From a virus, in the UHGV virus genome UHGV-1455077: 64,000 nucleotides of DNA; one strand, given 5' to 3'. The first letter of the stretch is position 1, and the number at the start of each line of letters is the position of its first letter. The notes under the pieces are model-generated. The model was given only the letters and a program-made list of their open reading frames with translations. It did not search any database and was not told the origin of the DNA. Of the stretch, positions 13,147-26,047 are shown piece after piece. The translations under genes and the position numbers were made by a program.

Positions 13147-13491
13147 ATGATAGAATTAAGAAATTGTAAAAAACACGGTTTAACAGAATTTTCATATCAT
13201 AAATCTGGTAATAGATGGAGATGTAAAAAATGTATGGTTGAAGCTGTTAAATTAAGAAGGAAAAAAATTAAAGAAAAAGCTGTCGAATATAAAGGTGGAA
13301 AATGCGAAATCTGTGGATATAATAAATGTATAGATGCATTAGAATTTCATCATTTAAATCCAAAAGAAAAAGATTTTGGAATTGGAGAAAAAGGTTATAC
13401 TCGCAGTTGGATAAAAATTCAAGAAGAACTTGATAAATGTATTATGGTGTGTGCAAATTGCCATAGAGAAATACATAATAAAGATACGTAA
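13147..13491 (+). CDS. HNH homing endonuclease with zinc-binding motifs
   Basis: CKKC...CEICGY...EFHHLNP...CANCHREIH; sits inside the tRNA cluster. Confidence 0.85.
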   Translation: MIELRNCKKHGLTEFSYHKSGNRWRCKKCMVEAVKLRRKKIKEKAVEYKGGKCEICGYNKCIDALEFHHLNPKEKDFGIGEKGYTRSWIKIQEELDKCIMVCANCHREIHNKDT

Positions 13492-13846: not shown

Positions 13847-13871
13847 TTATTGTTTTTTCAAAATTTTTAAG

Positions 13872-14010
13872 AATGGTGAGAAATTGATTTACATAGACTG
13901 GAAATCCGTGTGTAGAAAGTTCGATTCTTTCCCCATCGACCATTTAACGGTGGGTAGCTCATTGGTAGAGCAACGTAAAATGATAATCAATTGTTATGTT
14001 CCTTCTTAAT
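13872..14010 (+). ncRNA. structured tRNA-like RNA unit A (permuted)
   Basis: Order along the strand: aatggtgagaaattgatttacatag leader; T-arm GAAAG-TTCGATT-CTTTC; acceptor 3' strand CCCATCG-A-CCA; 5-nt spacer; acceptor 5' strand CGGTGGG; D-arm GCTC-ATTGGTA-GAGC. The unit is closed by AATTGATT (13882-13889) pairing with AATCAATT (13985-13992). Confidence 0.55.
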
Positions 14011-14483: not shown

Positions 14484-14663
14484 TTATAAAAATGCTGGCA
14501 ATATTGGTTCGAATCCAATATGTATATCTTATCCTAAAAATTACTATTATAGTATTAGATTTAAATAGTAATGATATGTCAAATTTAATAAGAACGTGTT
14601 ATTGAATTATATACATTAGTTTAATGGTAGAACCCCAGCATTTCTATAAGAAGATTTTTATGG
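14484..14663 (+). ncRNA. permuted tRNA-like element
   Basis: The 3' half (GCTGG, variable loop, ATTGG-TTCGAAT-CCAAT, ATGTATA-T; 14494-14527) lies about 80 nt upstream of the 5' half (TATACAT-TA-GTTT-AATGGTA-GAAC-C-CCAGC; 14610-14639). Acceptor 7/7 and anticodon-stem 5/5 are complementary across the two halves. Outer closing stem ATAAAAAT/ATTTTTAT. Confidence 0.55.
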
Positions 14664-14735
14664 GTGTATAAGTCAACGGTTAGACTAACAGCCTTTTAAG
14701 CTGTAGATTCGGGTTCGATTCCTTTATAATCAATA
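14658..14735 (+). tRNA. tRNA-Lys (TTT)-like with degenerate 3' end (possible pseudogene)
   Basis: Acceptor 5' GGGTGTA; D AGTC/GACT; anticodon stem ACAGC/GCTGT; loop CTTTTAA. The T-arm is truncated (CGGG-TTCGATT-CC) and there is no matching acceptor 3' strand. Confidence 0.35.
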
Positions 14736-15219
14736 ATGTATAAGAAAAATAACAAATTTCTTTCTTGATAATTAGGTAATGAAATTAATGCCTAATTATG
14801 ACAAGTATTTAACAAAATTTTCTGACTCTAATCAAAGAATTAGTGATTGATAGTTTAAGAATTATCTGTATACGTGAATGACACCCTTTATCAACGTTTG
14901 CATACATAACTGCATAAATCAAGATGGGTTAGGTGGTCGTTTATCCGTTTCACCTTTCATATGATAAACAAAACGAAAAACGGATTGCATTTTTTATAAT
15001 ATTCAAAATGGGTATTAGATAAGATATTGGTAGCTAGATAACCCAATATATGATAAAAACCATTATTGATAAGGTTTAAGATTTCGACCTTTAACCCAAT
15101 GGAAATCCAGTTTATCTATTGTACTTGGTTAACAATAGCGTAGAATTGGTCATTCTCAAAAAGGTACGTAAGCCTTTTTATATTAAATAAATATCTTATA
15201 TAATTTATGAGGTATTAAA

Positions 15220-16052: not shown

Positions 16053-16107
16053 TTTTTTATTTTATGGGAATATTATCATTCGATATTATATTTTTATCTA
16101 TCAAATA

Positions 16108-16320
16108 GTGATAAATCAACAGCTTAAGATTAGGACACTTAATAAATGAAACAATGTAATTTTTGTGTGTAGTAAAATTTATTGGTAGTAATTTATTAAT
16201 ATATGGAAAATCTAATGAATCATTAATGTAGAAATACACAACTTTAATGATAGTGAAAAATAATTGTCAATGGTATTTCAAACAATTGTTTGATTTGATA
16301 TATAACCACGATATAATTAT
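16108..16320 (+). ncRNA. two further ATAGTGA-leader units (H at 16108, I at 16250), reduced versions of the structured RNA family
   Basis: aatagtgataaatcaac... and gatagtgaaaaataattg ... caattgtttg. Unit I has the closing stem AATAATTG/CAATTGTT with one G.U pair. Confidence 0.35.
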
Positions 16321-19497: not shown

Positions 19498-20163
19498 ATG
19501 TATTACCTAATTTATAAAATAACTAATAATGTAAATAATAAAATCTATATTGGAAAACATCAAACGGAAAATAAAGATGATGATTATATGGGTTCTGGAA
19601 AAATAATAAAAAGAGCTATTGAAAAATATGGTATAGATAAATTTACAAAAGAAATATTATATGAATGTAATTCATTAGAAGAAATGAATGAAAAAGAAGC
19701 AGAAATTGTTGATGAAGAATTTGTTGTTCGTTTAGATACATATAATATTAAATTAGGTGGTCAAGGTGGATGGGATTATGTCCATAAATATACTGATTGG
19801 AATGGATTTAAATATATAAATTCACAAAAGTTAAATAATAAATCGAATCAGTATAAAATATCTGCTGAAAAACTTAAAAATGATGAAAAATATGCAAAAG
19901 AATTTTCTTTAAAAATTTCTAATGGATTAAAATTATATTACCAATTACATAATAATCCATTTAAAGGGAAAAAACATACAATTGAATCAAAAATAAAAAT
20001 TGGTAAAGCAAATGCTATTAAACAAGCTGGTGAAGGAAATTCCAATTATGGAAAATGTTGGATTTATAATGAAGAATTAAAAGAAAATAAATCTATTAAA
20101 AAAGAAAATTTACAATCTTGGTTAGAGAAAGGTTGGAAAAAAGGGAGAAAAATGAAATTTTAA
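19498..20163 (+). CDS. GIY-YIG homing endonuclease
   Basis: N-terminus YYLIYKITNNVNNKIYIGKH...YMGSG matches the GIY-YIG motif. Embedded in the tRNA cluster. Confidence 0.8.
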   Translation: MYYLIYKITNNVNNKIYIGKHQTENKDDDYMGSGKIIKRAIEKYGIDKFTKEILYECNSLEEMNEKEAEIVDEEFVVRLDTYNIKLGGQGGWDYVHKYTDWNGFKYINSQKLNNKSNQYKISAEKLKNDEKYAKEFSLKISNGLKLYYQLHNNPFKGKKHTIESKIKIGKANAIKQAGEGNSNYGKCWIYNEELKENKSIKKENLQSWLEKGWKKGRKMKF

Positions 20164-21563: not shown

Positions 21564-21859
21564 AAAATTATTGACATATAAAAAATATTATGTTAATTGT
21601 TATAACAAAAGGGAAAATAAAAAACGCCCCTCTGTTAGAAATATATGAGTAGAAATAACAAGTCGTTAAGAAGATTCGCCTTATCTAACAAGGTTAAAGA
21701 GTTTTTTCCTAAAGATGATTTAGGTTTGATGATAAATCAGTAAAAAATATATTGACATATGTTAATTATTATGATATATTTAATTATATTTTAATTTTAA
21801 GTAATATATTAAAATCATTTAATAATTGGTTGGCAAGACCAATAGGATGCCTTTTTAAG

Positions 21860-22330
21860 GCAATGAAAGTAAAATCTTTCTTTTAATATATGAAGATAAA
21901 TTATGTCGTGAATGATTTAGTCGGAGAGATAAGCGACTAAGATAAAATAAAAAAATCTCAAATTCCATAGACGTATGGACGGCATAATAAATTAAATTGT
22001 TGTAACTCAAACAATGGGTAGCCTGCCCATAAGAGTATGCTGGATAATCTGAAAAGATTTGAAGGTAGTTGTGAGTAATACGAATCATAAGGTTGAAATA
22101 GCCACGGTTGGCTAACCGTGAGTGACGTAAGAACCAGACAAATCGTACAGATGAATAGGTCTGATGGCTGTATCTGGTTGGGAGTAGTCATTCTCCCCAT
22201 CCATTAAGCAAAGGAGTAATTAACCTTTGTGGGTGTGACTGAATAATGTGTCGTATGAGGGGCTTGTTGGTAGTCAGGAGTCCAACCAATAATTTAATTT
22301 TAACAGTTTGTGGCAGTCGTTCTGTTTAAA
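21860..22330 (+). ncRNA. GC-elevated structured noncoding region, candidate large ncRNA or ribozyme
   Basis: About 450 nt with no credible ORF and locally GC-rich paired segments (gggtagcctgccc..., ccacggttggctaaccgtg..., gggagtagtcattctcccc). Follows two TTGACA promoters at 21571 and 21752. Confidence 0.3.
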
Positions 22331-22353
22331 AACTCTGCCTTTTTAAACAAACA

Positions 22354-22455
22354 GATAGTGATTATTAGATTTACATAGTTCGATTCTATATTTTTTCATA
22401 TAAAAAGGAAAAATGCCAAAAGGGTGGCGTTTACAATCTAATGAATTTTCTTCTG
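22354..22455 (+). ncRNA. structured RNA unit B (ATAGTGA leader, reduced core with T-loop)
   Basis: gatagtgattattagatttacatag + TTCGATT ...; closing stem ATTAGATT/AATCTAAT. Confidence 0.45.
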
Positions 22456-22472
22456 TTTATTTAAAAATTTTC

Positions 22473-22545
22473 GATAGTGAGTATAAGATTTACATAGACC
22501 AGACTTTTAATCTGACATTTACAAAATCTTATAGATTGTTCTTCG
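22473..22545 (+). ncRNA. structured RNA unit C
   Basis: gatagtgagtataagatttacatag + hairpin CAGA-CTTTTAA-TCTG; closing stem TATAAGATT/AATCTTATA. Confidence 0.45.
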
Positions 22546-22564
22546 AATTAATACTTTTTTGTGA

Positions 22565-22662
22565 ATAGTGAGATATTAGGTTTACATAGCTAAAGTGGTT
22601 AAAGCATTTGACTTGAAATCAAAGTATTGTAGGTTCGATTCCTACTGTAATTTTAACTTAAT
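22565..22662 (+). ncRNA. structured RNA unit D, containing a complete class-I tRNA-like fold with anticodon TGA (22580-22653)
   Basis: Leader aatagtgagatattaggtttacatag. tRNA-like: acceptor GTTTACA/TGTAATT (one U-U), D GCTA/AAGC, anticodon stem TTTGA/TCAAA, loop CTTGAAA, T-arm GTAGG-TTCGATT-CCTAC. Closing stem TATTAGG/CTTAATA. Confidence 0.5.
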
Positions 22663-22727
22663 AAAATGTTCTTTCACAAATTTAATTATTTGACACTTTA
22701 TTATAAATGTTATATAAATAATAATAT

Positions 22728-22813
22728 GGAAGGTAACTGGCTGGATGAAGACACCGACTTGAAATCGGCTGGGCGTAACTGCTTTGGGGGTTCGAGTCCC
22801 TCACCTTCCGCCA
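22728..22813 (+). tRNA. tRNA-Ser (TGA), type II
   Basis: Acceptor GGAAGGT/ACCTTCC; loop CTTGAAA; long variable arm; T-arm GGGGG-TTCGAGT-CCCTC; G73 then CCA. Confidence 0.7.
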
Positions 22814-22820
22814 TTTTTAT

Positions 22821-23514
22821 TTGGTATTGTGGGATATGATAAAAGTAAGTAGAAAAGAATACGAAAATAATCCAGAAAAATATATTATATATTGTACAAA
22901 ATGTAAAAAACCAATAATATTTAAAGATTATAGACATTATTGTGATAGAGTTAATAAAATTAATATTAGACATCATCAACCATTTTGTTCAAAAGAATGC
23001 TCATATGAATATCATAGATTATTTACAAATAAAGGAATTTGTGATTTTTGTGGTAAAGAGTTTATTAGACAAAATGTTTATGGGGATAAAAGACAAAAAC
23101 ATACATTTTGTTCACAAAAATGTTCTGCAAAATATTTTAATAGTCATAAAAAATTTGGTTATAGAAAATCAAAAGCTGAAGAATATATTGTAAGTCAATT
23201 AAAAAAAAGATTATCCGTATTTAAATATTAAAGAAAATGATGTATCAACAATAGGTAAAGAACTTGATATTTATTTACCAGATTTAAATTTAGCATTTGA
23301 AATTAATGGTATAGTTCATTATAAACCTATATATGGAAAAGAAAAGTTAAATAAAATACAAAATAATGATTTTTTTAAAAAAGAATTATGTGAAAGTAAA
23401 AATATTTTATTGACAATAATTAATATAAGTGATATAAAAGTATTTAAAGAGAATTTAATTATAAATAAATATAATTACATTAAAGAAATTATAAGTAATA
23501 CAATGCCACGATAG
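22821..23514 (+). pseudogene. frameshifted homing-endonuclease-like gene: Zn-ribbon N-terminal ORF (22821..23231) plus endonuclease-like continuation in another frame (~23233..23514)
   Basis: N-terminal ORF has CxxC pairs (CTKCKK, CSKECSYEYH, CDFCGKEF, CSQKCS). The downstream frame encodes KELDIYLPDLNLAFEINGIVHYKP..., a Vsr/DUF559-type endonuclease core motif, with no ATG of its own. Confidence 0.5.
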
Positions 23515-23580
23515 CTCAACTGGCAGAGCAACCGATTTGTAATCGGTAGGTTGGGGATTCGACTTCCTCTCGTGGCACCA
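23505..23580 (+). tRNA. tRNA-Thr (TGT)
   Basis: Acceptor GCCACGA/TCGTGGC; D GCTC/GAGC; anticodon stem ACCGA/TCGGT; loop TTTGTAA; T-arm GGGGA-TTCGACT-TCCTC; A73 then CCA. Confidence 0.8.
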
Positions 23581-23711
23581 GATTTTAATAAGCTCCCCCG
23601 CTAAAGATACTTTGTGTATACAGCGAATATGGGTCAAAGTTTAAACTTTGCATTAAATTATAATAATTGTACAATAAAAAATTATGTGAGCATTTTTTAA
23701 TTTTGTATGGT

Positions 23712-23790
23712 AATAGTGACTTAAAGAATTACATAGATAACTGATTATTGTCTGCCAAAACAAGAAATTCTTTAAAATTATTCTTTACCA
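23712..23790 (+). ncRNA. structured RNA unit E
   Basis: taatagtgacttaaagaattacatag...; closing stem TTAAAGAATT/AATTCTTTAA (10 bp). Confidence 0.45.
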
Positions 23791-23805
23791 TTTAAACTAT
23801 TTTAG

Positions 23806-23945
23806 CAATAGTGAGAAAAGGATTTACATAGGTTTGTAACCCGTTGGTAATTGGTTCGAATCCAATCAAGTAATTGAAATATATTATTTGTAGCTCATTG
23901 GTAGAGCAACGATAAAAAATAATCCTTTATTATGTTCTTTGCTAA
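23806..23945 (+). ncRNA. structured tRNA-like RNA unit F (permuted, same architecture as unit A)
   Basis: Leader caatagtgagaaaaggatttacatag; T-arm ATTGG-TTCGAAT-CCAAT; acceptor 3' CAAGTAA. A few nt downstream, acceptor 5' TTATTTG (7/7 complementary) and D-arm GCTC-ATTGGTA-GAGC. Closing stem AAAGGATT/AATCCTTT. Confidence 0.55.
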
Positions 23946-23953
23946 CAAATATT

Positions 23954-24062
23954 TGGTGATAGTGATTAATTAGGTTTACATAGCTTAATGGTTAGAGCAT
24001 TGATTTAACACATCAAACGTTACAGGTTCAACTCCTGTTGTAATTAATACCTAATTTACTAT
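23954..24062 (+). ncRNA. structured RNA unit G, containing a complete class-I tRNA-like fold (23974-24046) with anticodon loop TTAACAC
   Basis: Leader tgatagtgattaattaggtttacatag; acceptor GTTTACA/TGTAATT; D GCTT/GAGC; anticodon stem TTGAT/ATCAA; T-arm ACAGG-TTCAACT-CCTGT; closing stem TAATTAGG/CCTAATT. Confidence 0.5.
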
Positions 24063-24082
24063 TCTTCACCAGTTCAATTTTG

Positions 24083-24115
24083 CACCCAAGAACATATGTT
24101 CTTGGGTATTTTTTT
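24083..24115 (+). terminator. rho-independent terminator closing the tRNA/ncRNA island
   Basis: cacccaagaacatatgttcttgggtattttttt. Confidence 0.8.
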
Positions 24116-24125
24116 ATATAAGTTA

Positions 24126-24155
24126 TTGACAAATCATCTATAAATGAAGTATATT
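24126..24155 (+). promoter_or_regulatory. sigma70-like promoter
   Basis: ttgacaaatcatctataaatgaagtatatt. Confidence 0.5.
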
Positions 24156-24181: not shown

Positions 24182-24481
24182 ATGAGCTATATTACAAATG
24201 AAGATGAACATCAACATATGACATTGTTTGTCTATTTTCCTTGTTCATTAGGTTATGAATGTGCAAAAATTATATTGCAACCTGGTGAGAAATTTTTTGC
24301 TAATGATGATGAAATTATTATGAAAATAGATAATAATAAAAATCCATTAAATAAAGATTTTGTAGGAATTAAAAACGGTGTTTTATATGCTGTTGGTCAA
24401 GAAATATATAAATTAGGAATGTTTAGAGAAAAACCTAAACAAATGACATTTGCCACGACAATGTTTAAATATACAGAATAA
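24182..24481 (+). CDS. hypothetical protein
   Basis: 99-aa ORF with RBS aagaggtaaaaATG. Confidence 0.45.
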   Translation: MSYITNEDEHQHMTLFVYFPCSLGYECAKIILQPGEKFFANDDEIIMKIDNNKNPLNKDFVGIKNGVLYAVGQEIYKLGMFREKPKQMTFATTMFKYTE

Positions 24482-24505: not shown

Positions 24506-24688
24506 ATGGATTATAATGAAGAATGGACTTTAGCTGATATTGATAATAATCACGATACACAGATGCTCAATGAATATTTTTCACAAAAAAGTATTAAAGA
24601 AAGAATATTAGAAAATAAAGAAAAATATCGTGCAGAACAAATACTTAAAACTAAAATGATTAAAGAAAATTTAGGTCAAAAAAGATAA
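24506..24688 (+). CDS. hypothetical protein
   Basis: 60-aa ORF. Confidence 0.35.
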   Translation: MDYNEEWTLADIDNNHDTQMLNEYFSQKSIKERILENKEKYRAEQILKTKMIKENLGQKR

Positions 24689-24760: not shown

Positions 24761-26047
24761 ATGAAAACAAATAAAGCTGAAAAGAAACCAGCAATTTACA
24801 CTAATGAAGGTGGTAAAGCATCTCATATTAGTGATTTAGAAGAATTGAAAAGAGCAACAATGTCTTGTTTGCTTTGGGAAGATAACTTCTATGAAGATGG
24901 TGTATCAATTGCTGACAGAATTACCTCTTTAGTTAAAAATTGTATTGATAAAGGTCATTATGATGATGTAATTGATATTTTGAAAACTGTAAAATTTGAT
25001 ATGAGATTACGTCATTGTCCATTGTGGATGATTGTTGCAATTTATAAAGCAGGTAAAACTATTGATAAGAATGTTATTGCATCTATTCTTACAAGACCAG
25101 ATGATATGGGAGAATTACTTTCTCTTTATCGTAAAGACCAAGCAAATGCACCTATTCCAAATGCTATGAAAAAAGCTATGGCTATTGCCATTACTAAATT
25201 TGATGAATATCAATTGGCTAAATGGAATCGTGATGCTAATTACAAATTGGTTGATATTGTAAACATTTGTCATCCACAAGTAACTGAAGCTATTGATAAG
25301 TTGGTTAAAGGAACTTTAGAAACTCCAAAAACTTGGGAAGTTCTTCTTTCTGCCGCTGGTTCTGATAAAGAAAAGAAAAAAGAAGCTTGGTTGGATTTGA
25401 TTGAAACTAATAAATTACCTGATATGGCTCTTTTGAAGAATATTCGTGGTATGTTGGATGTAGGTGTTTCTAAAAACACATTGGTTGACCGTATTAATAA
25501 TATTAAAAATGGTAGATTATTGCCAATTGATTATATTAGAGCGGCAAATACAAATCCATCATTGGAAAATGAAATTGAAAAGAAATTCTTAAATTGCTTT
25601 GAAAAACCTTCTTTGAATGGTAAGACTGCAATTTTAGTAGATGTGTCAGGTTCTATGGATGGAGAAAGATTAAATTATGCAAATGCATTAGCGATGATTG
25701 GTCGTGAAATGTGTGAAAATGTTGATATTTACTCATTCTCTAATGAAGTCAAATTCATTCCAAATCGTAGAGGATTTGCTTTAGCAGAAGCTATTGATAA
25801 ATCACAATACCATAATGGAACTTATATGTGGGATGCTATTAGTACAGTTGAAAAAGCTCATTACGATAGATTAATTGTTATTACTGATGAGCAAACAATG
25901 GGTATGCCACACAACGCAGTTATTAAAAATGCATACATTATTAATGTTGCACCATATAATAAAGGTGTTGGTTACAATAATGGTTACAAACATATTAATG
26001 GTTTTTCAGATAAAGTATTTAATTATATTACTGAAATTGAAAAATAA
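24761..26047 (+). CDS. rsr: Ro60/Rsr-like protein (TROVE-like N-terminal region plus C-terminal vWA domain with MIDAS)
   Basis: N-terminal LKRATMSCLLWEDNFYEDG resembles the Ro60 LHRFLCFGSEGGTYY region. C-terminal AILVDVSGSMDG (DxSxS MIDAS) and a vWA-like fold. Size (428 aa) is appropriate. Confidence 0.6.
   Translation: MKTNKAEKKPAIYTNEGGKASHISDLEELKRATMSCLLWEDNFYEDGVSIADRITSLVKNCIDKGHYDDVIDILKTVKFDMRLRHCPLWMIVAIYKAGKTIDKNVIASILTRPDDMGELLSLYRKDQANAPIPNAMKKAMAIAITKFDEYQLAKWNRDANYKLVDIVNICHPQVTEAIDKLVKGTLETPKTWEVLLSAAGSDKEKKKEAWLDLIETNKLPDMALLKNIRGMLDVGVSKNTLVDRINNIKNGRLLPIDYIRAANTNPSLENEIEKKFLNCFEKPSLNGKTAILVDVSGSMDGERLNYANALAMIGREMCENVDIYSFSNEVKFIPNRRGFALAEAIDKSQYHNGTYMWDAISTVEKAHYDRLIVITDEQTMGMPHNAVIKNAYIINVAPYNKGVGYNNGYKHINGFSDKVFNYITEIEK

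What the first reader, a model, noticed from the sequence alone, without database searches (positions are those of the whole stretch)
22354..24062. Family of structured RNA units with a conserved leader and covarying closing stems around tRNA-like cores
At least seven units share a 5' leader (A/G)ATAGTGA(G), then 8-10 variable nt, then (G)TTTACATAG. The units are A at 13872, B at 22354, C at 22473, D at 22565, E at 23712, F at 23806 and G at 23954, with reduced copies at 16108 and 16250. Each ends with a segment exactly complementary to its own variable 8-10 nt: AATTGATT/AATCAATT, ATTAGATT/AATCTAAT, TATAAGATT/AATCTTATA, TATTAGG/CTTAATA, TTAAAGAATT/AATTCTTTAA, AAAGGATT/AATCCTTT, TAATTAGG/CCTAATT. 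The sequence differs between copies but pairing is preserved. That is classical covariation evidence for a real RNA helix. A T/GTTCTT-rich tail follows each unit. The cores range from a complete class-I tRNA-like fold (D, G) to circularly permuted tRNA modules (A, F) to minimal hairpins (B, C, E). The architecture (ends paired in a stem, tRNA-like T-arm, D-arm and closed acceptor hairpin inside) matches what is described for bacterial YrlA/Y RNAs, and an Rsr/Ro60-like gene sits 700 nt downstream.
Basis: seen in the sequence. Interest (0 to 1): 0.9.

Follow-up and report, generated by a model that had tools for sequence, protein, structure and literature searches.

The report
Phage Y RNA array beside Ro60 gene
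Seven small structured RNAs in the tRNA island of a human-gut jumbo phage are divergent relatives of the Y RNAs that partner the Ro60/Rsr RNA-quality-control protein encoded just downstream; this RNA kind is already known in phages, but two copies carry a complete tRNA shape, so gene finders mis-call them as tRNAs.

Summary
The window contains exactly seven units: A 13867-14009, B 22349-22458, C 22470-22547, D 22558-22680, E 23707-23791, F 23802-23945 and G 23953-24072. It is: outer helix, one bulged base, an R-G/C-Y pair, a conserved asymmetric internal loop (5' UGAG opposite 3' NNUGUU), a 7-10 bp middle helix, then UUACAUAG. Both helices covary across 30 units from eight phage lineages (95% paired versus 55% shuffled). 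The platform lies within 1.5 kb upstream of the Rsr gene in 38 of 42 related loci, and in Xanthomonas phage Tabio and Caulobacter phage CcrColossus. Intermediate phages carry GGCGAAUG or GGCGAG where the window has AGUGAG. The "leader" is therefore an AT-drifted version of the published Ro60-binding motif GNCGAAN0-1G. A and F are YrlA-type (permuted tRNA-like). C and E are short hairpins. B carries a T-arm-like hairpin plus further hairpins. D and G are whole cloverleaves joined through the acceptor stem. They lack CCA, and their "anticodon" changes between near-identical phages. This is a known kind with a new variant. The copies claimed at 16108 and 16250 are not supported.

The parts
13867..14009 (+). 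Unit A, YrlA-type Y RNA-like gene. Outer helix TTAAGAA/TTCTTAA, bulged T, GG/CC pair, loop TGAGA opposite GTTATGTT, middle helix AATTGATT/AATCAATT, then TACATAG. The core is a T arm (GAAAG-TTCGATT-CTTTC), a 7-bp acceptor-like helix whose 3' strand is followed by an encoded ACCA (13939-13942), and a D arm (GTAGCTCATTGGTAGAGC).
   Evidence: (Rfam YrlA 42.5 bits). Nearly identical in L121-L123 (one core substitution).
22349..22458 (+). Unit B. Same platform (outer AAACAGA/TCTGTTT, middle TTATTAGATT/AATCTAATGA). The core has a T-arm-like hairpin (ATAG-TTCGATT-CTAT) plus two further hairpins. Found only in the window lineage.
22470..22547 (+). Unit C, minimal type. Platform (outer TTCGA/TCGAA, middle TATAAGATTT/AAATCTTATA) around a single short hairpin.
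22558..22680 (+). Unit D, cloverleaf type. Platform (outer TTTGTGAA/TTCACAAA, middle TATTAGGTT/AACTTAATA) carrying a complete non-permuted class I tRNA fold (22579-22654) joined through its acceptor stem. It has no CCA. The anticodon loop is CTTGAAA. ARAGORN calls it tRNA-Ser(tga).
   Evidence: (tRNA 61.2 bits).
23707..23791 (+). Unit E, minimal type. Platform (outer ATGGTAA/TTACCAT, middle TTAAAGAATT/AATTCTTTAA) around one hairpin.
23802..23945 (+). Unit F, YrlA-type. Platform (outer TTAGCAA/TTGCTAA, middle AAAGGATT/AATCCTTT). The core is a T arm (ATTGG-TTCGAAT-CCAAT), a closed 7-bp acceptor-like helix and a D arm (GTAGCTCATTGGTAGAGC).
   Evidence: (Rfam YrlA 35.4 bits). Orthologues show compensatory changes: AAAAGATT/AATCTTTT and GAAAGATT/AATCTTTC.
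23953..24072 (+). Unit G, cloverleaf type. Platform (outer TTGGTGA/TCACCAG, middle AATTAGGT/ACCTAATT) carrying a complete class I tRNA fold (23974-24046). It has no CCA. The anticodon loop is TTAACAC. ARAGORN calls it tRNA-Val(aac).
   Evidence: (tRNA 59.3 bits).
24761..26047 (+). Rsr/Ro60-like gene (428 aa). TROVE domain followed by a vWA-like region (Pfam VWA_2 only 18.8 bits, below its cutoff of 27) with a DVSGS MIDAS motif. This is the presumed protein partner of the seven RNAs.
   Evidence: TROVE E=2.5e-17; phage phiLo Ro60 9KOP/9L5Y, E=1.9e-13, residues 14-427.
24084..24117 (+). Intrinsic-terminator-like hairpin with a T run that closes the E-F-G block. A TTGACA-18-TATATT promoter-like site for the Rsr operon follows at 24126-24155.
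21752..21780 (+). Promoter-like site (TTGACA-17-TATATT with TG, 11 of 12 matches). It could drive a ~540-nt conserved non-coding stretch and then units B, C and D as one precursor.
   Evidence: Transcription is inferred, not shown.

Best explanation
The seven units are genes for Y RNA-like non-coding RNAs (the Yrl/YrlA family) that partner the phage's own Ro60/Rsr protein.

Each RNA has two modules. The first is a shared protein-binding platform: outer helix, one bulged base, an R-G/C-Y pair, an asymmetric internal loop (5' UGAG opposite 3' NNUGUU), a 7-10 bp helix and UUACAUAG. This platform is the AT-drifted homologue of the Ro60-binding region of YrlA (GG-CGAA ... CUUGUCGCC). The second is a variable 'effector' module. 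It is a permuted tRNA-like domain in A and F, a whole cloverleaf joined by its acceptor stem in D and G, and short hairpins in B, C and E.

By analogy with characterised Ro60 RNPs, Rsr would bind the platform on the outside of its ring. The RNA would then gate the ring's cavity and/or tether Rsr to a second factor that recognises the tRNA-like elbow, such as PNPase or another tRNA-binding enzyme. Different units would give one protein several specificities.

The units are probably cut out of multi-gene precursors together with the neighbouring tRNAs. The outer helices may serve as excision signals. Unit A, with a 7-bp acceptor helix and an encoded ACCA, may be nicked by RNase P as M. smegmatis YrlA is.

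Shown here: the anatomy, the covariation, homology of the platform and linkage to Rsr. Inferred: Rsr binding, transcript ends, processing and the effector.
For: - The motif is far above chance: 6 hits versus 0.01 expected. A structure scan finds only these seven units, all on the + strand.
- Both helices covary over 30 units from eight lineages. 95.3% of cells are paired versus 54.8% shuffled. Double-change cells number 190 versus 56.5. The covariation score is 1.06 versus 0.25 (0/500 shuffles), and the slid controls give 0.12-0.26.
- G.U pairs outnumber A.C 15 to 4, which fits a + strand RNA rather than a DNA palindrome.
- Orthologous units in phages with 86%-identical Rsr show compensatory changes in both helices.
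- The R of AU[R]G covaries with the Y of UUC[Y]: GG/CC versus AG/CU.
- Rfam YrlA is the best non-tRNA hit on A and F. Their D arm GUAGCUCAUUGGUAGAGC and T loop match the YrlA consensus.
- In relatives, the platform is found within 1.5 kb upstream of Rsr on the same strand in 38 of 42 metagenomic loci. Density is 2.0 per kb there, against 0.12 elsewhere and 0.036 on the minus strand.
- Xanthomonas phage Tabio has five units and CcrColossus about six.
- Motif series for the 5' strand: GGCGAAUG/GGCGAG (L124, Rsr 59% identical), GGCGUAG, GGUGAAG, GGUGAG (unit A), AGUGAG. For the 3' strand: CUUGUCGCC (Rfam consensus), GCUUGUUCC, AUGUUCC, UGUUCU.
- Published basis: the GNCGAAN0-1G motif, YUAY, T/D/AS arms, phage YrlAs, and RNase P cleavage plus CCA addition (PMC4201824). 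A phage Ro60 binds two Yrl RNAs that have a CGAA motif in a stem-bulge-stem, and recruits PNPase (PMC12135203). YrlA has a modular architecture (bioRxiv 10.1101/312249).
Against: - There is no expression or binding data.
- Neither A nor F reaches the Rfam gathering score.
- The literal GNCGAAN0-1G motif is absent from the window.
- Single-sequence folding z-scores are modest (-1.0 to -3.0), as expected at 27% G+C.
- The register of the middle helix was chosen by a helix search, so the paired percentage for that helix is somewhat inflated. The outer helix was placed from fixed anchors, and the shuffle and slide controls address this.
- Unit A lies 10.8 kb from Rsr, outside the 4-kb rule used in the literature.
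- D and G score as good tRNAs and could in principle be released as such.
Confidence: 0.85

Rival explanations
1. D and G are ordinary decoding tRNAs, and the shared flanks are a transcription or processing cassette for the tRNA island (for example an RNase III- or RNase E-type excision helix), with no link to Rsr.
For: D and G score 61.2 and 59.3 bits on the tRNA model. They sit in a tRNA array. Their anticodon loops keep U33 and a purine at position 37. The outer helices could plausibly be processing sites.
Against: - About 20 of the 22 other tRNA calls in the window carry an encoded CCA; D and G do not.
- Their first acceptor pairs are weak and compete with the middle helix.
- D has a Ser anticodon on a class I body (SerRS needs the long variable arm; established knowledge), while a proper class II tRNA-Ser(UGA) lies 50 nt downstream.
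- The anticodon of the orthologous unit changes between near-identical phages: UGA, UUU, GUU and GUA for D; AAC, AAU and UGA for G. The 19 other tRNA calls keep theirs.
- None of the genuine tRNAs has the cassette, whereas hairpin-only units (C, E) do.
- The cassette tracks Rsr genes across unrelated phages.
Confidence: 0.06
2. The units are structured RNAs, but the conserved platform is bound by a protein other than Rsr or is a self-contained regulatory element, and the linkage to Rsr reflects only a shared genomic island.
For: Binding was not tested. Unit A is 10.8 kb from Rsr. Two small ORFs of unknown function (24182-24481, 24506-24688) lie between unit G and Rsr.
Against: Linkage to Rsr holds across lineages that share little else, with G+C from 27% to over 60% and genomes from 43 kb siphoviruses to jumbo phages. 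The platform maps position by position on the Rsr-binding end of YrlA, which Rsr protects from nucleases in D. radiodurans (PMC4201824).
Confidence: 0.07
3. The repeats act at the DNA level, as a promoter plus terminator pair, a recombination site or a miniature mobile element with inverted ends.
For: The hexamer (G/A)ATAGT resembles a -10 box. The units are dispersed and appear to reassort: in L157 the D flanks carry a G-like core.
Against: - The outer helix covaries across the supposed -10 box, so the box lies inside the folded RNA.
- The same platform is kept in phages of over 60% G+C with GGCGUAG in place of ATAGTGA.
- G.U outnumbers A.C 15 to 4, and all units lie on one strand.
- Promoter-like sites are not enriched in the region: 29 found versus 25 expected.
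Confidence: 0.02

Closest known systems
YrlA (Y RNA-like A; Rfam RF02553), including the phage YrlAs reported by Chen et al. 2014 (PMC4201824)
   Same: - Units A and F have the YrlA order: stem, YUAY, variable region, T arm, closed acceptor-like stem-loop, D arm, stem.
- Their D-arm and T-loop sequences are near-consensus.
- They lie on the same strand as an Rsr gene and upstream of it.
- The platform maps on the YrlA 5' end (GG-CGAA-..-[stem]-CUAC) and 3' end ([stem]-..CUUGUCG-CC).
- Unit A has a 7-bp acceptor helix plus ACCA, like the processed M. smegmatis YrlA.
   Different: - Scores of 42.5 and 35.4 bits are below the gathering score of 69.
- The motif is (A/G)GUGAG instead of GNCGAAN0-1G, and the 3' strand is shortened to UGUUC(U/C).
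- An extra 5-8 bp outer helix (7-10 bp with the R-G/C-Y pair) and a bulged base lie beyond the point where the YrlA model ends.
- The internal loop between the middle helix and the tRNA-like core is much larger (16 x 9 nt).
- There are seven paralogues, spread through a tRNA island.
Yrn1 of Deinococcus radiodurans
   Same: D and G share its topology. The tRNA-like part is joined to the Ro60-binding stem at the acceptor position, and the anticodon-like arm is a closed hairpin (PMC4201824).
   Different: Yrn1 has only a T arm, partial D-loop features and a 6-nt 'anticodon' loop. D and G are complete cloverleaves with 7-nt loops that pass tRNA finders. They share their platform with YrlA-type units in the same genome. 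Homology to Yrn1 was not tested.
Yrl1/Yrl2 of Thermus phage phiLo with its Ro60 (PMC12135203; PDB 9KOP, 9L5Y), and YrlB of Salmonella and M. smegmatis
   Same: Short stem-bulge-stem RNAs lie upstream of a phage Ro60 gene, with the CGAA-type motif in the internal loop. Units C and E, and partly B, are of this minimal kind. The window's Rsr matches phiLo Ro60 over its full length.
   Different: The motif sequence differs (UGAG). The phiLo sequences were not compared directly here.
Metazoan Y RNAs
   Same: The 5' and 3' ends pair into a bulged helix that binds Ro60, and a variable module sits above it. The 3' strand CUUG signature is still traceable through the phage series.
   Different: Metazoan Y RNAs have no tRNA-like module, are transcribed by Pol III, and keep both strands of the binding helix conserved.

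Membership tests
Y RNA-like RNAs of Ro60/Rsr loci (broad sense) | Encoded beside a Ro60/Rsr (TROVE + vWA) gene, on the same strand | tested here: met
   B-G lie 0.7-2.4 kb upstream of the TROVE gene at 24761-26047, on the same strand. A lies 10.8 kb upstream. In relatives, 38 of 42 Rsr loci have a unit within 1.5 kb.
Y RNA-like RNAs of Ro60/Rsr loci (broad sense) | 5' and 3' ends pair into a long stem interrupted by an internal loop or bulge that carries the Ro60-binding motif on the 5' strand | tested here: met
   Two covarying helices flank a conserved 4-5 x 7-8 nt loop in all seven units.
Y RNA-like RNAs of Ro60/Rsr loci (broad sense) | Bound by Ro60/Rsr in vivo or in vitro, as a discrete transcript of about 80-150 nt | not testable with these tools
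   No expression or binding data are available. Predicted lengths are 78-144 nt.
YrlA (Rfam RF02553) | Score at or above the curated gathering score (69 bits) | tested here: not met
   A scores 42.5 bits (E=3.4e-8) and F 35.4 bits (E=1.5e-5). The units of isolated phages Tabio and CcrColossus also stay below it, at 52.1, 42.3 and 37.3 bits.
YrlA (Rfam RF02553) | GNCGAAN0-1G motif near the 5' end (Chen et al. 2014) | tested here: not met
   The literal motif is absent: A has GGUGAG, and B-G have AGUGA(G/C/U). A graded series (GGCGAAUG and GGCGAG in L124, then GGCGUAG and GGUGAAG in other phages) at the same position in the same platform argues for homology.
YrlA (Rfam RF02553) | Near-invariant T arm and D arm with an acceptor-like stem-loop between them, and YUAY after the stem | tested here: met
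   Met for A and F. UUAC follows the middle helix in all seven units. B, C and E lack these arms, and D and G have them in tRNA order, so those five are not YrlA in the strict sense.
Canonical decoding tRNA (considered for D and G) | Cloverleaf scoring above the tRNA model threshold | tested here: met
   61.2 and 59.3 bits against a threshold of 29. ARAGORN calls them Ser(tga) and Val(aac).
Canonical decoding tRNA (considered for D and G) | A mature-type 3' end like the genome's other tRNAs (encoded CCA after a sound 7-bp acceptor stem) | tested here: not met
   D and G have no CCA, while about 20 of the 22 other tRNA calls in the window carry it. Acceptor pairs 1-2 are G.U and U.U and overlap the middle helix.
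Canonical decoding tRNA (considered for D and G) | Anticodon and identity conserved between orthologues | tested here: not met
   D is UGA, UUU, GUU, GUA or GAU, and G is AAC, AAU or UGA, across relatives whose other tRNA calls are unchanged. D pairs a Ser anticodon with a class I body.
Sigma-70 promoter / intrinsic terminator pair | The leader acts as a -10 box at the 5' edge of the transcript, and the closing stem plus T tract ends it | tested here: not met
   The outer helix covaries around the leader. The platform is kept in high-G+C phages with a different sequence. Promoter-like sites are not enriched.

The most novel reading that the evidence does not exclude
Units D and G would be a third class of Y RNA. 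In this class a complete, non-permuted tRNA mimic is grafted by its acceptor stem onto the Rsr platform, and its anticodon loop turns over between near-identical gut phages (UGA, UUU, GUU and GUA for D; AAC, AAU and UGA for G) while the rest of the RNA stays fixed. The most novel reading still open is that these are Rsr-tethered baits or decoys for host factors that read anticodon loops, such as anticodon nucleases of tRNA-targeting defence systems, Tgt or other modification enzymes. That would make the Y RNA array a counter-defence arm of the phage tRNA island. The simpler reading is that the elbow-binding partner places no constraint on the loop, so the loop drifts neutrally.
Probability: 0.12. 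Interest if true: 0.8.

Novelty: new variant of a known kind. Interest (0 to 1): 0.5.

Why it matters
Ro60 and its Y RNAs are conserved from bacteria to humans, yet what the variable module of a Y RNA recruits remains largely unknown. This phage offers a natural experiment: one Rsr gene, one binding platform and three kinds of module (permuted tRNA-like, whole tRNA, bare hairpin), with close relatives that differ by compensatory changes and by anticodon-loop swaps.

There are three practical consequences.
- The Rfam YrlA model misses these phage RNAs at its threshold.
- tRNA finders mis-count D and G as tRNA-Ser and tRNA-Val, and a CcrColossus unit is annotated tRNA-Gln. Phage tRNA inventories near TROVE genes are therefore inflated.
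- The refined platform descriptor found here locates Y RNA arrays beside most phage Rsr genes examined.

Tried and rejected
- Megablast of the region against 50,697 phage records gave no match.
- Scanning IMG/VR with the leader-to-TACATAG pattern alone returned over 119 single, mostly chance hits and was uninformative. The Rsr protein was the useful handle.
- Scanning IMG/VR for the D/G cloverleaf sequence found, outside this lineage, only ordinary tRNAs that happen to start GUUUACAUAGC and end in CCA. No further anticodon variants came from that scan.
- The Rfam alignments of A and F place the model's first stem on different segments. I rejected both registers in favour of the mapping supported by the relatives.
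- RNAalifold suggested GUGA/UUAU pairing inside the loop of A and F. It is absent in the other units, so I did not adopt it.
- The TACATA / TATGT pairing implied would cross the middle helix and is absent from B, C, E and G.
- Pfam scans of neighbouring and large ORFs gave no RNA-repair or nuclease partner.
- Two reviews on bacterial Y RNAs were not held in the library.
- The candidates at 16105 and 16250 were rejected as described in the observation check.
Full report
SETTING. The window is 26.6% G+C. It carries a tRNA island from about 12.4 to 28.3 kb, with 21 ARAGORN and 23 Rfam tRNA calls, all on the + strand. It matches a 217-kb IMG/VR contig (L120, Rsr 100% identical) and human-gut metagenome contigs. 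It is therefore part of a jumbo phage from the human gut. No sequenced isolate is close at the DNA level.

CHECKING THE OBSERVATION. ATAGTGA-N(6-14)-TACATAG occurs six times, all on the + strand, against 0.01 expected. Each half alone is unremarkable or only mildly enriched. Unit A at 13872 has AATGGTGAG. Each variable segment after the leader is complementary to a segment just before a T(G/A)TTCT tail.

The 5-8 bases before the leader pair with the bases after the tail, for example F TTAGCAA/TTGCTAA, G TTGGTGA/TCACCAG, D TTTGTGAA/TTCACAAA, E ATGGTAA/TTACCAT. The last two bases of AT[A/G]G pair with the C[T/C] of the tail across a single bulged T.

The common anatomy is therefore: [outer helix] - bulged U - [R-G / C-Y] - internal loop (5' UGAG(A) opposite 3' N2-4 UGUU) - [middle helix of 7-10 bp] - UUACAUAG - core. 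Minimum-free-energy and centroid folds of all seven units recover both helices, with z-scores of -1.0 to -3.0.

A scan of the whole window for this anatomy returns the seven units plus one probable chance hit inside an ORF. It returns none on the minus strand, and 2 and 1 in the reversed controls. The 'reduced copies' at 16105 and 16250 have the heptamer only. ATAGTGA alone occurs 12 times against 11.5 expected. These two sites lack the tail and the outer helix and are not conserved in the 86% relatives.

COVARIATION. Relatives were fetched through the Rsr protein. Phages whose Rsr is 86% identical carry orthologous units with compensatory changes in both helices:
- F middle helix: AAAGGATT/AATCCTTT, AAAAGATT/AATCTTTT, GAAAGATT/AATCTTTC.
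- G outer helix: GGTGA/TCACC, GATGA/TCATC.
- D outer helix: GTGAA/TTCAC, GCGAA/TTCGC.
- E outer helix: GGTAA/TTACC, GACAA/TTGTC.

I cut the platform out of 30 distinct units from eight lineages into fixed-length constructs. MAFFT left these gapless. Results on that alignment:
- 95.3% of cells form standard pairs, against 54.8% after shuffling.
- 190 cells have changes on both sides, against 56.5.
- The covariation score is 1.06 against 0.25 (0 of 500 shuffles reach it).
- Sliding the partner by 1-3 columns gives 0.12-0.26.
- 14 of 15 pairs show double changes, and the fifteenth is the invariant G-C.
- The R-G/C-Y pair itself splits 16 G-C to 14 A-U.

One caveat applies. The register of the middle helix was chosen by a helix search, which inflates its paired percentage. 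The outer helix was read from fixed anchors.

G.U pairs outnumber A.C 15 to 4, and all units are on one strand. This points to RNA rather than a DNA palindrome.

WHAT IT IS. The ORF at 24761-26047, 688 nt after unit G, has a TROVE domain (E=2.5e-17). It also has a weak vWA match that stays below Pfam's cutoff (VWA_2 18.8 bits versus 27) and a DVSGS MIDAS motif. It matches the solved Ro60 of Thermus phage phiLo over residues 14-427, E=1.9e-13.

Rfam's YrlA model is the best non-tRNA hit on A (42.5 bits) and F (35.4 bits). Both are below the gathering score of 69. A and F have the YrlA order of elements and near-consensus D arm and T loop.

The decisive evidence is comparative. The same platform lies directly upstream of Rsr in phages that share little else:
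- L126, L127, L128, L129 and L124.
- Most of 43 metagenomic loci.
- Xanthomonas phage Tabio, with five units.
- Caulobacter phage CcrColossus, with about six units, one of them annotated tRNA-Gln.

Overall, 38 of 42 loci with enough upstream sequence have a unit within 1.5 kb on the same strand. Density is 2.0 per kb there, 0.12 elsewhere and 0.036 on the minus strand. Of the four exceptions, one is a chimeric contig broken inside a unit, one has the units displaced by an inserted gene, and one has them downstream.

HOMOLOGY OF THE 'LEADER'. Chen et al. (PMC4201824) defined YrlA by four features: proximity to Ro60, a 5' GNCGAAN0-1G motif thought to contact Rsr, T and D arms around an acceptor-like stem-loop, and YUAY after the stem. 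The phiLo study describes a CGAA motif in a stem-bulge-stem (PMC12135203).

At the position of the window's (A/G)GUGAG, L124 (Rsr 59% identical, same UACAUAG) has GGCGAAUG, GGCGAGU, GGCGAGC and GGCGAGA. Other phages have GGCGUAG, GGUGUAG or GGUGAAG. On the 3' strand the series runs from CUUGUCGCC (Rfam consensus) through GCUUGUUCC and AUGUUCC to UGUUCU.

Read this way, the Rfam consensus ac-GG-CGAAUGCu-[uggGgaa]-CUAc ... [uucCcca]-aAaAcUuGuCG-CC-g lines up element by element with the platform. The window's leader and tail are thus the two strands of the Rsr-binding region, drifted towards A+U, with the G-C to A-U change compensated. What the phage versions add is the bulge and the outer helix.

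THE CORES.
- A and F are YrlA-type. In A the 3' strand of a 7-bp acceptor-like helix is followed by an encoded ACCA (13939-13942), then UUUAA and the 5' strand. A CcrColossus unit has the same feature. M. smegmatis YrlA, the one with a 7-bp helix, is cut there by RNase P and gains CCA (PMC4201824).
- C and E are single hairpins, of the YrlB/Yrl1-2 kind.
- B has a T-arm-like hairpin immediately after UACAUAG and looks like a deletion derivative of a D-type unit. It shares its middle helix with the D orthologue of L121.
- D and G are complete class I cloverleaves (61.2 and 59.3 bits on the tRNA model) attached through the acceptor stem. This is the topology described for D. radiodurans Yrn1, but complete.

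D and G are unlikely to be decoding tRNAs, for five reasons:
- They lack the encoded CCA that about 20 of the 22 other tRNA calls carry.
- Their first acceptor pairs are weak and overlap the middle helix.
- D combines a Ser anticodon with a class I body, next to a proper class II tRNA-Ser(UGA) at 22728-22812.
- G has an unmodifiable-looking A34.
- The anticodon is not conserved.

On the last point, D reads UGA in the window, UUU in L121, GUU in L122/L146, GUA in L153/L154 and GAU in L124/L158. G reads AAC in the window, AAU in L144 (Rsr 100% identical) and UGA in L121. The other 19 tRNA calls of L121 and L122 are identical. Between L121 and L153, three of the four differences in 128 nt fall in the 7-nt loop. 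Between the window and L144, the only difference in unit G is in the anticodon. In L157 the D flanks carry a G-like core, so cores and platforms reassort.

HOW IT PROBABLY WORKS. This part is inferred from characterised Ro60 RNPs. Rsr binds the platform on the outer face of its ring. The RNA gates the cavity and/or tethers Rsr to a factor that recognises the tRNA-like elbow. Precedents are PNPase in D. radiodurans, Salmonella and phiLo (PMC4201824, PMC12135203, bioRxiv 10.1101/312249).

The constant 7-10 bp spacing between the loop and UUACAUAG suggests both are read together.

The units probably come from precursors. A strong promoter-like site at 21752-21780 precedes a conserved ~540-nt non-coding stretch and then B-C-D. 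E-F-G end at a terminator-like hairpin at 24084-24107. The outer helices may mark excision sites.

RIVALS. The tRNA-cassette, other-protein and DNA-level readings are addressed in the rival section. Together I give them about 0.15.

NOVELTY. Phage Ro60 genes with adjacent Y RNA-like RNAs have been known since 2014, and one such RNP has been solved. Four things are new here:
- A lineage so AT-drifted that the literal motif and the Rfam threshold both fail.
- A platform descriptor with an extra covarying helix that finds arrays beside most phage Rsr genes examined.
- Seven paralogues embedded in a tRNA island.
- Cloverleaf-type units with anticodon turnover that are mis-called as tRNAs.

I found no description of the last feature in the searchable literature. 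That search covers open-access papers only.

Noticed in passing
window 21790-22345: A ~540-nt stretch with no plausible ORF follows a strong promoter-like site (21752-21780) and runs straight into unit B. It is 87% conserved in the 86%-Rsr relatives and folds better than shuffles (z = -3.3). It gives only weak Rfam hits: manA 23.5 bits at 22209-22296 and 6A 29 bits at 21913-21967. It may be an undescribed large structured RNA co-transcribed with the Y RNAs.
   Followed up: partly
window 14600-14745: The tRNA-Lys(UUU) call at 14661-14733 looks 3'-truncated compared with its intact orthologue in L121 (2344-2418). The T-stem 3' strand and the acceptor strand are replaced and there is no CCA. It also sits between two halves of another tRNA-like sequence (TATACAT ... 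ATGTATA).
   Followed up: partly
window 22821-23500: A zinc-finger (FCS-type) ORF continues in another frame, after an A8 run near 23203-23210, into what looked by eye like a Vsr/DUF559-type endonuclease region. Pfam gave no hit for 23233-23500 in the frame tested. The whole segment is absent from L121-L123, so it is a mobile, homing-endonuclease-like insertion between tRNA-Ser and tRNA-Thr, carrying a frameshift or a sequencing error. Its stop codon overlaps the start of tRNA-Thr.
   Followed up: partly
window 22728-22812: A class II tRNA-Ser(UGA) with an encoded CCA is missed by ARAGORN and by the Rfam tRNA model at gathering threshold. It appears only as a 30.7-bit tRNA-Sec hit.
   Followed up: partly
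L134 (Caulobacter phage CcrColossus JX100810) 2128-2195; L133 (Xanthomonas phage Tabio LR743528) 1860-2460: The 'tRNA-Gln' annotated in CcrColossus lies inside a YrlA-type unit of a roughly six-unit array upstream of the TROVE gene. Tabio and its relatives have an unannotated five-unit array in the 675-nt gap before their TROVE gene.
   Followed up: partly
window 13147-13491 and 19498-20163: A weak HNH-type match (E=5.9e-4, 20.4 bits, just under Pfam's cutoff) and a GIY-YIG/NUMOD3-type homing-endonuclease ORF are interspersed in the tRNA island. This fits frequent insertion and rearrangement there.
   Followed up: no
L147 (OLGE01013652.1) about 2100-2320: This metagenome contig switches from high-G+C bacterial-looking sequence with two tRNAs into the 3' half of unit G in the middle of the T arm. 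It is probably an assembly chimera formed at a shared tRNA T-arm sequence.
   Followed up: no
L157 1173-1277: In a phage with 69% Rsr identity, the unit with D-type flanks (outer GCGAA/TTCGC, middle TTATTAGATT) carries a G-like cloverleaf core. This is evidence that cores and platforms recombine as modules.
   Followed up: partly
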